Made by a program: the position numbers and the translations under genes. 64,000 nucleotides of DNA from Escherichia coli. Its GTDB lineage: Bacteria; Pseudomonadota; Gammaproteobacteria; Enterobacterales; Enterobacteriaceae. Under the pieces are notes generated by a model that was not told where the DNA came from, made no database searches, and was given only the letters and a program-made list of their open reading frames with translations. The stretch lies in the NCBI RefSeq assembly GCF_003334815.1, contig NZ_QOWO01000021.1, one strand, 5' to 3'. Positions 2,410 through 3,068 of the stretch are shown piece by piece. Every line of letters begins with the position of its first letter. Position 1 is the first letter of the stretch.

Positions 2410-2883
2410 TACAGTGTTAATGAAATTTGTGATAAATGCCAATTAGTTGTTGAGAATAATGCGCTGGGTAACAAGAATGACAAGCTGCCACCCATTATTC
2501 CGATAAATCCGCTGCCAATCGGGGTTGAAGGTGCAGATGGTGAGCTGCTGAACGGTGGTGGTGGGATAACTAAAGGCGGTAAATCTAAAGATACTCAAAT
2601 TTGGACAGAAACCAAGAAAGCAGAACCTGTAGGTAATGCCTATGGGCATTGGACAAAACATGGAAAAGAGTTTCCAGAGTATCAGAATGCGAAGCAATAT
2701 GTTGATGCTGCACATAATTTTATGACAAACCCACCGCCAGGTACTTTAACTAAAACCCGCCCTAACGGAAACACACTGTATTACAATCCTGTGACTAATG
2801 TCTTTGCTTCAAAAGATATAAATGGTGTACCGCGTACAATGTTTAAATCAGATAAAGGTATCGAATATTGGAACAAGCAATGA
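2410..2883 (+). CDS. Orphan CdiA-CT toxin cassette 2, no start codon (VENN at 2449-2460)
   Basis: Open frame beginning immediately after the cassette-1 immunity stop; translates ...QLVVENNALGNK... through ...YGHWTKHGKEFPEYQNAKQYVDAAHNF...IEYWNKQ; no ATG/GTG/TTG upstream of VENN, so it is missing from the ORF track. Confidence 0.6.
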   Translation, partial: YSVNEICDKCQLVVENNALGNKNDKLPPIIPINPLPIGVEGADGELLNGGGGITKGGKSKDTQIWTETKKAEPVGNAYGHWTKHGKEFPEYQNAKQYVDAAHNFMTNPPPGTLTKTRPNGNTLYYNPVTNVFASKDINGVPRTMFKSDKGIEYWNKQ

Positions 2884-3068
2884 TGAATAATGGTTCTTAT
2901 CCTTGTCCATGCTGTGGAAATAAGACAATTGATGAGCCGGGTTGTTATGAAATTTGCCCTATATGCGGATGGGAAGATGACCCTGTTCAATCGGCTGATC
3001 CAGATTTTTCTGGCGGGGCAAATTCTCCGAGTTTAAATGAGGCGAAACGAGCATTTAACGAACAGTAA
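2880..3068 (+). CDS. Putative CdiI immunity protein for cassette 2 (Cys-rich CPCCG...CPICG zinc-ribbon protein)
   Basis: Small ORF overlapping the toxin stop (ATGATGA); start may be 2868, 2880 or 2883; four-Cys motif. Confidence 0.5.
   Translation: MMNNGSYPCPCCGNKTIDEPGCYEICPICGWEDDPVQSADPDFSGGANSPSLNEAKRAFNEQ

What the first reader, a model, noticed from the sequence alone, without database searches (positions are those of the whole stretch)
2410..3068. Startless orphan toxin cassette 2 with a Cys-rich zinc-ribbon immunity candidate
The toxin frame has no initiation codon before VENN and is absent from the supplied ORF track, so it would be missed by standard gene calling. It is probably silent unless recombined into a full cdiA. 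The CT contains HWTKHGKEF...AAHNF, which may indicate an RNase-type fold (my guess only). The downstream 61-66-aa ORF has a CPCCG...CPICG four-Cys motif and overlaps the toxin stop.
Basis: partly seen in the sequence, partly recalled or inferred. Interest (0 to 1): 0.45.

Follow-up and report, generated by a model that had tools for sequence, protein, structure and literature searches.

The report
Orphan CDI toxin remnant, zinc-ribbon immunity
This is an ordinary leftover "orphan" toxin/antidote pair from an E. coli contact-dependent growth inhibition locus whose crystal structure is already deposited; the toxin copy has no start codon and seems to be decaying, while the small zinc-binding antidote gene is kept intact.

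Summary
Frame 1 is open from 2410 to the TGA at 2881-2883, VENN is at 2449-2460, and the first in-frame ATG/GTG/TTG is at 2722. A 61-66-aa Cys-rich ORF (2868/2880/2883..3068) overlaps the toxin stop. It is an E. coli orphan cdiA-CT/cdiI module. The immunity protein is 100% identical to PDB 8EY3 and 8EY4 chain I. Toxin residues 57-144 are 84/88 identical to 8EY4 chain A ("CDI toxin-immunity protein complex from E. coli O32:H37", released 2023). The same pair ends a full-length 3176-aa CdiA in strain ZYB62.

No cdiB or cdiA body lies in the 64-kb window or 13.6 kb upstream. The window's toxin differs from the family at two nearly invariant positions (D108N, P134S). Sister orphans carry a nonsense codon or H67Y, while the immunity gene stays intact. 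Most likely the immunity gene is maintained for protection and the toxin is a decaying remnant. This is already known and of low interest.

The parts
2410..2448 (+). 39-nt startless leader (YSVNEICDKCQLV) between the stop of the upstream cassette's immunity ORF (TGA 2407-2409, same frame) and VENN
   Evidence: The leader plus VENN is 95-100% conserved in many E. coli, including O157:H7, where a different CT follows it.
2449..2460 (+). VENN pre-toxin motif (GTT GAG AAT AAT); homology to full-length cdiA starts here
   Evidence: blastn and tblastn homology to the ZYB62 cdiA begins at 2446-2448.
2461..2616 (+). Pro/Gly-rich linker, CT residues 5-56, where other CdiA-CTs have an entry domain. Residues 36-56 are predicted disordered; residues 5-35 were not modelled.
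   Evidence: pLDDT is below 50 for the first 23 modelled residues. Composition. The segment is shared at the amino-acid level with the pSCU-152-1 CdiA subtype.
2617..2883 (+). 88-aa BECR, colicin-D-like nuclease domain (CT residues 57-144) plus the TGA stop. Invariant His67 is at 2647-2649 and His71 at 2659-2661. Off-consensus N108 is at 2770-2772 and S134 at 2848-2850.
2722..2724 (+). First in-frame start codon (M92). It would give a 53-aa fragment lacking the His-bearing helix.
2880..3068 (+). cdiI immunity gene, a CPCC-family (PF14206) zinc-ribbon-type protein of 62 aa. Alternative starts are TTG 2868 and ATG 2883. The invariant Cys codons are C9 at 2904-2906, C12 at 2913-2915, C26 at 2955-2957 and C29 at 2964-2966.
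   Evidence: 100% identical to 8EY3 and 8EY4_I. PF14206 at 9e-22. Invariant C9/C12/C26/C29. AF2 model matches 8EY3 at TM 0.94-0.97.

Best explanation
This is an orphan cdiA-CT/cdiI module of an E. coli contact-dependent growth inhibition (CDI) array.

The toxin fragment encodes VENN, a ~55-residue linker and an 88-residue basic RNase domain (pI 9.4). The domain has the BECR fold and is closest to the colicin D tRNase. By analogy it would cleave tRNA or another RNA without a metal, using the invariant His67/Lys70-His71 on helix 1. That activity is inferred, not shown. When fused to a full-length CdiA, as in strains ZYB62 and O32:H37, the domain is delivered into neighbouring cells.

The next gene encodes the acidic (pI 4.05) 62-aa CPCC protein. 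Its fold is held by four invariant cysteines, presumably around one Zn. It binds the toxin, as shown by the deposited complex 8EY4. How it neutralises the toxin is inferred.

In this window the toxin frame has no start codon and no cdiA body, and the array is cut off from cdiBA by an IS66 remnant. The toxin is therefore not made. It is drifting: D108N and P134S here, and a nonsense codon or H67Y in sister copies. The immunity gene is preserved unchanged, most likely because it protects the cell against neighbours that deploy this toxin.
For: Identity. Toxin residues 57-144 match 8EY4 chain A (E = 1e-56, 84/88 identical). The immunity protein is 100% identical to 8EY3 and 8EY4 chain I. The entry is titled 'CDI toxin-immunity protein complex from E. 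coli O32:H37'.

Full-length context. The same CT and CPCC gene end a 3176-aa CdiA downstream of a cdiB homologue in ZYB62.

Conservation. H67 is His in 167/168 relatives and H71 in 164/166, among other invariant positions.

Polymorphic-toxin character. There are 3015 representative clusters. In the best 150 hits listed the domain is nearly always at the C-terminus (a few proteins carry several copies). Of the seven hits scanned with Pfam, the N-terminal parts were CdiA-type, DUF6443/Rhs-type or eCIS_core.

Conserved pairing. A CPCC gene follows the toxin in Proteus mirabilis and in a metagenome relative. A distantly related Cys-rich protein (hhalign probability 84%, E = 7e-6) follows it in Bacteroidota-like Rhs loci and on pSCU-152-1.

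Charge complementarity.

Orphan status. There is no start codon. No cdiA or cdiB lies in the window or 13.6 kb upstream; an IS66 tnpA sits there instead. In strain C4 the same block lies downstream of a full cdiA.

Decay. Against ZYB62 the toxin has 6 differences, all nonsynonymous, and the immunity gene has 1, synonymous. P134 is Pro in 165/165 relatives and position 108 is Asp or Glu in 162/166. TUM1880 has VGNN and Q79*. M8 and OkiPb01681 have H67Y. The immunity protein is identical in 7 of the 8 copies compared.
Against: No activity, substrate or protection was measured here, and I found no paper describing 8EY4.

The toxin does not match Pfam Colicin_D or any other Pfam or NCBIfam model. 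A family HMM does not reach colicin D by sequence. The catalytic assignment therefore rests on fold similarity and conservation only.

The window's copy still has an intact frame and both histidines, so it could still be active if expressed.

Six nonsynonymous against zero synonymous differences is not statistically significant alone (about 0.18 under neutrality).

Expression of the orphan immunity gene is not shown. Its Shine-Dalgarno sequence is weak, translational coupling to the toxin frame would be lost, and the promoter scan found nothing above chance.

Only about 78 kb of this genome was inspected for cdiBA.
Confidence: 0.85

Rival explanations
1. Functional reserve toxin. The orphan CT is a still-active silent cassette kept so that recombination at the VENN-coding sequence can graft it, with its immunity gene, onto a cdiA gene and switch the strain's toxin type.
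For: The frame is intact with both invariant His present. The identical CT exists at the end of full-length CdiA. Cassette exchange exactly at VENN is visible: the same leader is followed by a different CT in O157:H7 FRIK2533. Orphan toxins are reported to be toxic when expressed (review PMC9086364 citing Poole 2011).
Against: Only about 12-20 nt (VENN and a few bases) are shared with cdiA upstream, unlike orphan 1 and the pO104_H21 copy, which keep 160-860 nt of pre-VENN sequence. No cdiA lies within the window or 13.6 kb upstream. The window's copy has substitutions at a 100%-conserved Pro and a 98%-acidic position. Sister copies carry a nonsense codon or H67Y.
Confidence: 0.12
2. Internally expressed toxin-antitoxin-like pair. 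The toxin frame is translated from a non-canonical or internal start, or by read-through of the in-frame TGA at 2407-2409, and acts with the CPCC protein as an addiction module.
For: The upstream ORF and the toxin share a frame separated by a single TGA. BECR toxins include the RelE, HigB and BrnT TA toxins.
Against: There is no ATG/GTG/TTG and no Shine-Dalgarno sequence before M92, and starting at M92 removes the His-bearing helix. Read-through would fuse the toxin to a membrane protein. Nonsense and H67Y alleles are tolerated with the immunity gene unchanged. No promoter signal exceeds chance.
Confidence: 0.02
3. Coincidental neighbour. The CPCC ORF is a small zinc protein with an unrelated role that merely sits next to the toxin fragment.
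For: PF14206 is a broad family. A Komagataeibacter homologue stands alone without a toxin.
Against: It was co-crystallised with the toxin (8EY4). It overlaps the toxin stop by ATGA. The pairing recurs in E. coli, Proteus and a metagenome relative with a 50%-identical toxin.
Confidence: 0.01

Closest known systems
PDB 8EY4 / 8EY3: contact-dependent growth inhibition toxin-immunity complex, and immunity protein alone, from E. coli O32:H37 (released 2023-11-08)
   Same: The immunity protein is 100% identical over 62 aa. The nuclease domain is 84/88 identical. The AF2 models superpose at 0.6-0.9 Å. ZYB62's full-length CdiA carries exactly the crystallised toxin sequence.
   Different: The window's copy is a startless orphan with four substitutions in the domain (V58A, D108N, P134S, E135D relative to the crystallised protein). 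Two of them are at nearly invariant positions. No publication describing activity was found.
Colicin D tRNase domain with ImmD (PDB 1V74, 1TFK, 1TFO, 5ZNM)
   Same: It is the best non-self structural match. It shares the BECR topology, a basic surface and a conserved histidine on the N-terminal helix, and it is neutralised by an acidic immunity protein (PMC9990079).
   Different: Identity is only 19-22%. There is no match to Pfam Colicin_D (PF11429) and no HMM-level similarity. The immunity protein is an unrelated small Cys4 protein, not ImmD. The substrate is unknown. Delivery is by CdiA (type V secretion), not as a colicin.
Orphan cdiA-CT/cdiI modules of E. coli EC93 and EC869 (Poole et al. 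2011, as summarised in PMC9086364)
   Same: The module starts at the VENN pre-toxin motif, lacks a start codon and is followed at once by its immunity gene. It sits in tandem with other orphans and transposase remnants, and it has a counterpart on a full-length CdiA elsewhere.
   Different: Here almost no pre-VENN homology is retained, and the local array has lost cdiBA (IS66 remnant).
BECR-fold CDI tRNases CdiA-CT(EC3006), CdiA-CT(Kp342), CdiA-CT(EC869) and CdiA-CT(NC101)
   Same: They are CdiA-delivered, metal-independent RNases of the colicin D/E5 clan (PMC9990079).

Membership tests
Orphan cdiA-CT/cdiI module (CDI, E. coli type) | Toxin fragment begins at or near the VENN pre-toxin motif and lacks a translation start | tested here: met
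   VENN is at 2449-2460. There is no ATG/GTG/TTG in frame between 2410 and 2721.
Orphan cdiA-CT/cdiI module (CDI, E. coli type) | Cognate immunity gene immediately downstream | tested here: met
   ATGA overlap at 2880-2883. The protein is identical to chain I of the 8EY4 complex.
Orphan cdiA-CT/cdiI module (CDI, E. coli type) | Same CT found as the C-terminus of a full-length CdiA in another strain | tested here: met
   The ZYB62 CdiA (3176 aa) ends with this CT at 95% amino-acid identity and has cdiB upstream.
Orphan cdiA-CT/cdiI module (CDI, E. coli type) | Lies downstream of a cdiBAI locus | tested here: inconclusive
   Not met locally: no cdiA or cdiB lies in the 64-kb window or 13.6 kb upstream, where an IS66 tnpA sits instead. 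In strain C4 the same block (98.1% identical) lies downstream of a full cdiA.
Orphan cdiA-CT/cdiI module (CDI, E. coli type) | Toxin is toxic when expressed and the immunity protein protects | not testable with these tools
   Needs expression and competition experiments.
BECR fold / colicin D-E5 clan RNase | N-terminal helix or helices packed on a four-stranded antiparallel beta-sheet | tested here: met
BECR fold / colicin D-E5 clan RNase | Sequence membership in Pfam Colicin_D (PF11429) | tested here: not met
   No Pfam hit even at E <= 10. None of 7 diverse relatives has a Pfam hit on the toxin domain. The family HMM does not hit colicin D in the PDB.
BECR fold / colicin D-E5 clan RNase | Catalytic histidine on the helix, equivalent to colicin D His611 | tested here: inconclusive
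   H67 and H71 are invariant and lie on helix 1. No residue-level superposition was available.
BECR fold / colicin D-E5 clan RNase | tRNA or RNA cleavage activity | not testable with these tools
   NCBI's name 'effector tRNA nuclease' for the ZYB62 CdiA does not derive from the CT, because the CT alone hits no NCBIfam model.
Cys_rich_CPCC (PF14206) | Match to the family HMM including the CPCC motif | tested here: met
   PF14206 i-Evalue 9e-22 over residues 7-61. NCBI annotates it as 'CPCC family cysteine-rich protein'.
Zinc ribbon / Cys4 zinc-binding protein | Two CxxC knuckles with four conserved Cys | tested here: met
   C9, C12, C26 and C29 are invariant in 27 homologues, while C11 and C22 vary. 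There is weak sequence similarity to rubredoxin and PhnA knuckles (E = 0.05-0.2).
Zinc ribbon / Cys4 zinc-binding protein | Bound zinc and a zinc-ribbon fold | not testable with these tools
   Ligands of 8EY3/8EY4 are not visible through the tools. Foldseek finds no significant neighbour other than 8EY3 and 8EY4_I.

The most novel reading that the evidence does not exclude
The toxin may belong to a large clade of colicin-D-like BECR RNases that is so far unmodelled: at least 3015 clusters at 50% identity, with no Pfam or NCBIfam model. This clade would be partnered specifically with small Cys4 zinc-ribbon immunity proteins, either CPCC/PF14206 or a distantly related 85-89-aa type. That would give PF14206 its first assigned function. 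The E. coli version would reach the cytoplasm using only a ~55-residue Pro/Gly-rich linker instead of a folded entry domain, which implies an undescribed import route. In addition, orphan arrays cut off from cdiBA would act purely as immunity islands while their toxins decay.
Probability: 0.3. Interest if true: 0.4.

Novelty: already known. Interest (0 to 1): 0.15.

Why it matters
It matters little as a discovery. The pair is a near-identical allele of a deposited CDI toxin-immunity structure, and orphan cdiA-CT/cdiI modules have been described since 2011.

It does have some practical value:
- It shows that gene callers miss startless orphan toxins. NCBI annotates only the CPCC gene in the identical EC556 locus.
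- It links the uncharacterised Pfam family PF14206 to an immunity role.
- It flags a large toxin domain family that lacks any Pfam or NCBIfam model.
- It gives a clean small example of immunity retention with toxin decay in an orphan array detached from cdiBA.

Tried and rejected
Searches and tests that led nowhere:
- **Toxin family models.** Pfam and NCBIfam gave no hits for the toxin.
- **Sequence link to colicin D.** A family HMM against PDB sequences reached only 8EY4, not colicin D. The colicin D relation therefore rests on fold only.
- **Residue-level alignment to colicin D His611.** Not possible. No colicin D sequence or coordinates were available, and Graille 2004 (PMC391069) is not held.
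- **Literature.** Searches for 8EY4, 8EY3, CdiI+CPCC, PF14206, CdiI+zinc+tRNase+colicin D, and CPCC+immunity protein+polymorphic toxin found no paper on this pair.
- **Promoters and terminators, 1100-4000.** Three promoter-like sites against 5.9 expected by chance, so there is no evidence for a dedicated immunity promoter.
- **Alternative translation starts.** An internal or non-canonical start and TGA read-through were considered and rejected. The only in-frame start (M92) removes the catalytic helix, and there is no Shine-Dalgarno sequence in the leader.
- **NCBI product name.** The name 'effector tRNA nuclease' was rejected as evidence of activity, because the CT alone matches no NCBIfam model.
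- **Toxin-immunity interface.** Not attempted, because the structure tool returns no coordinates.
- **The 216-aa ORF at 3098-3748.** No hit in Pfam, NCBIfam or the PDB.

Full report
**Observation.**
The + strand frame starting at 2410 is open for 158 codons, up to TGA 2881-2883. It begins immediately after TGA 2407-2409, which ends the upstream 151-aa membrane ORF (1954-2409) in the same frame. VENN is encoded at 2449-2460. No ATG, GTG or TTG occurs in this frame before ATG 2722. The mechanical ORF list therefore shows only a 53-aa ORF at 2722..2883. The small ORF runs to 3068 from TTG 2868 (66 aa), ATG 2880 (62 aa) or ATG 2883 (61 aa). ATG 2880 overlaps the toxin stop as ATGA. The protein carries CPCCG and CPICG. 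A 157-codon stop-free run has a probability of about 2e-5 per position at local composition. The cassette is 41.9% G+C against 48.9% for the window.

**What it is.**
The 659 bases are 100% identical to the chromosomes of E. coli EC556, EC571 and EC581 and to a record of strain C5. In all, 53 of 5426 complete E. coli genomes carry the whole module. It occurs in three contexts:
- **End of a full-length cdiA.** In ZYB62 the CdiA is 3176 aa with cdiB upstream, and homology to the window starts exactly at VENN.
- **Orphan on large STEC plasmids.** On pO104_H21 it is preceded by about 860 nt of cdiA pre-toxin sequence.
- **Minimal-leader orphan in chromosomal arrays.** This is the window's context.

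In strain C4 the same block (window 1169-3478, 98.1% identical) lies downstream of a full cdiA. In the window's genome the array is preceded by an IS66 tnpA. No CdiA body or CdiB is encoded in the 64-kb window or 13.6 kb upstream.

NCBI annotates only the CPCC gene in EC556, so the toxin fragment is indeed missed.

The 39-nt leader plus VENN is conserved in many E. coli. In O157:H7 FRIK2533 it is followed by a different Gly-rich CT and a small membrane immunity protein. This shows cassette exchange exactly at the VENN codons.

**Already solved.**
Toxin residues 57-144 match PDB 8EY4 chain A (E = 1e-56, 84/88 identical). The small protein is 100% identical to 8EY4 chain I and to 8EY3. The entries are titled 'Contact-dependent growth inhibition toxin-immunity protein complex from E. 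coli O32:H37' and were released on 2023-11-08. ZYB62's CT is identical to the crystallised toxin. I found no paper describing these entries, or linking CPCC proteins to immunity, in the searchable library.

**Toxin fold and family.**
An AF2 model built on 19 homologues has pLDDT of 88 or more over the domain. It shows two helices followed by a four-stranded antiparallel sheet.
- It matches 8EY4_A at 0.9 Å.

This is the BECR fold. Colicin D cleaves tRNA-Arg between positions 38 and 39, using His611 on its helix as general base (PMC9990079). In this toxin H67 and H71 (GHWTKHGKEF) lie on helix 1. H67 is His in 167/168 relatives and H71 in 164/166. A metal-independent RNase, probably a tRNase, is therefore the likely activity, but this is inferred.

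The domain matches no Pfam or NCBIfam model, and its HMM does not reach colicin D by sequence. It is not a sequence-level member of Pfam Colicin_D.

A profile search of 1.84 billion representatives finds 3015 clusters at E <= 1e-3. In the best 150 hits listed the domain is nearly always at the C-terminus; a few proteins carry several copies. Of the seven hits scanned with Pfam, the N-terminal parts were CdiA-type (PT-VENN, Fil_haemagg_2, DUF637), DUF6443/Rhs-type or eCIS_core. That is the signature of a polymorphic toxin domain.

The segment between VENN and the nuclease is only about 55 residues and is Pro/Gly-rich. The part that was modelled (residues 36-56) is predicted disordered. No folded entry domain is apparent.

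**Immunity protein.**
It matches PF14206 (Cys_rich_CPCC) at 9e-22. In 27 homologues exactly four cysteines are invariant, C9, C12, C26 and C29. They form two CxxC knuckles. W31, E32, D34, Q37, G46, N48 and L52 are also invariant. The AF2 model (pLDDT 90.6) matches 8EY3 at TM 0.94-0.97. It has no other significant PDB neighbour. The protein is acidic (pI 4.05, charge -7.5), whereas the nuclease domain is basic (pI 9.4).

The toxin-immunity pairing is conserved:
- A CPCC gene follows the toxin in a P. mirabilis CdiA and in a metagenome relative whose toxin is 50% identical.
- In Rhs-type loci, and in a second E. coli subtype on pSCU-152-1, the downstream gene is an 85-89-aa Cys-rich protein. It aligns to CPCC by hhalign at 84% probability, E = 7e-6.
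- A Komagataeibacter CPCC gene stands alone without a toxin.

**State of the orphan.**
Against ZYB62, the window's toxin has six differences, all nonsynonymous. The immunity gene has one, and it is synonymous. Two toxin changes hit nearly invariant positions. Position 134 is Pro in 165/165 relatives but Ser here. Position 108 is Asp or Glu in 162/166 relatives but Asn here.

Other chromosomal orphan copies show further damage:

| Strain | Toxin change |
|---|---|
| TUM1880 | VENN changed to VGNN, and Q79* (nonsense) |
| M8 and OkiPb01681 | H67Y at the invariant histidine |

The immunity protein is identical in 7 of the 8 copies compared; the eighth has G5A. The counts are small, but the pattern fits relaxed constraint on the toxin and purifying selection on the immunity gene.

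Together with the missing start codon, the near absence of pre-VENN homology and the absence of a nearby cdiA, this favours one reading: the immunity gene is maintained for protection and the toxin is a remnant. The alternative, a ready-to-use reserve toxin, is less well supported. The two are not mutually exclusive, because the window's frame and both histidines are still intact.

**Caveats.**
Expression of the orphan immunity gene was not shown. The promoter scan gave nothing above chance, and translational coupling to the toxin frame would be lost. NCBI's product name 'effector tRNA nuclease' for the ZYB62 CdiA is not evidence for the CT's activity, because the CT alone hits no NCBIfam model.

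**Verdict.**
The element is an orphan cdiA-CT/cdiI module that is already structurally characterised in the PDB. It is of low interest. Three modest side points remain:
- PF14206 has an immunity role.
- The toxin family has no Pfam or NCBIfam model.
- The orphan lineage shows visible toxin decay.

Noticed in passing
window 3076-3252 (-) and 6074-6313 (-): A 58-aa ORF on the minus strand directly after the CPCC gene resembles the annotated SymE-family toxin gene at 6074-6313 (blastn: window 6061-6207 against ZYB62 L002 12629-12775, 70%). The roughly 410 bp after the CPCC gene (3069-3478) are about 98% conserved in ZYB62 and C4, so this remnant appears to travel with the cassette.
   Followed up: partly
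window 3098-3748 (+) and 3745-3960 (+): A 216-aa Gly-rich ORF with GxxxG-like runs is followed by a 71-aa ORF. Neither has a Pfam, NCBIfam or PDB match. It has no VENN. Its homology to ZYB62 and C4 ends at 3478. It may be a remnant of a membrane-active (ionophore-type) CDI toxin with its immunity gene.
   Followed up: partly
window 2407-2409: The TGA that ends the upstream 151-aa membrane ORF (1954-2409, the presumed immunity gene of the Ntox25 orphan) is in the same frame as the startless toxin. The two frames are separated by a single stop. The same arrangement occurs in O157:H7.
   Followed up: no
L007 (E. coli O157:H7 FRIK2533) 4990-5945, compared with window 2402-2486: The same 39-nt leader and VENN are followed by a completely different CT (226 aa, Gly-rich) and a 76-aa membrane immunity protein. 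This is a cassette swap with its breakpoint inside the VENN codons.
   Followed up: yes
L014 (TUM1880), L011 (M8), L012 (OkiPb01681): Sister orphan copies carry VENN changed to VGNN plus Q79* (TUM1880), or H67Y at the invariant histidine (M8, OkiPb01681). The CPCC protein is unchanged or has only G5A.
   Followed up: yes
L009 (pSCU-152-1) 2501-3216: A full-length CdiA carries a mosaic toxin. Its linker and helical half are almost the same as here, but the beta-sheet half differs (...HGYKTNLDYFNAQK). It is paired with an 89-aa Cys-rich immunity protein that is distantly related to CPCC (hhalign 84%, E = 7e-6). This suggests the C-terminal half determines immunity specificity.
   Followed up: partly
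window 1169-1950, 3970-4941 and 4950-5315: The neighbouring orphans are also damaged. The Ntox25 orphan is frameshifted and the DUF6862 orphan has an internal stop. The latter's CdiI gene (NF033826, 6.6e-60) is intact. This is the same pattern of intact immunity and decayed toxin.
   Followed up: partly
P0028 (1530 aa) and P0073 (808 aa), hits: Some secreted-looking proteins from unidentified sources carry three to five tandem copies of this toxin domain inside one polypeptide. That is unusual for a polymorphic-toxin CT domain.
   Followed up: no
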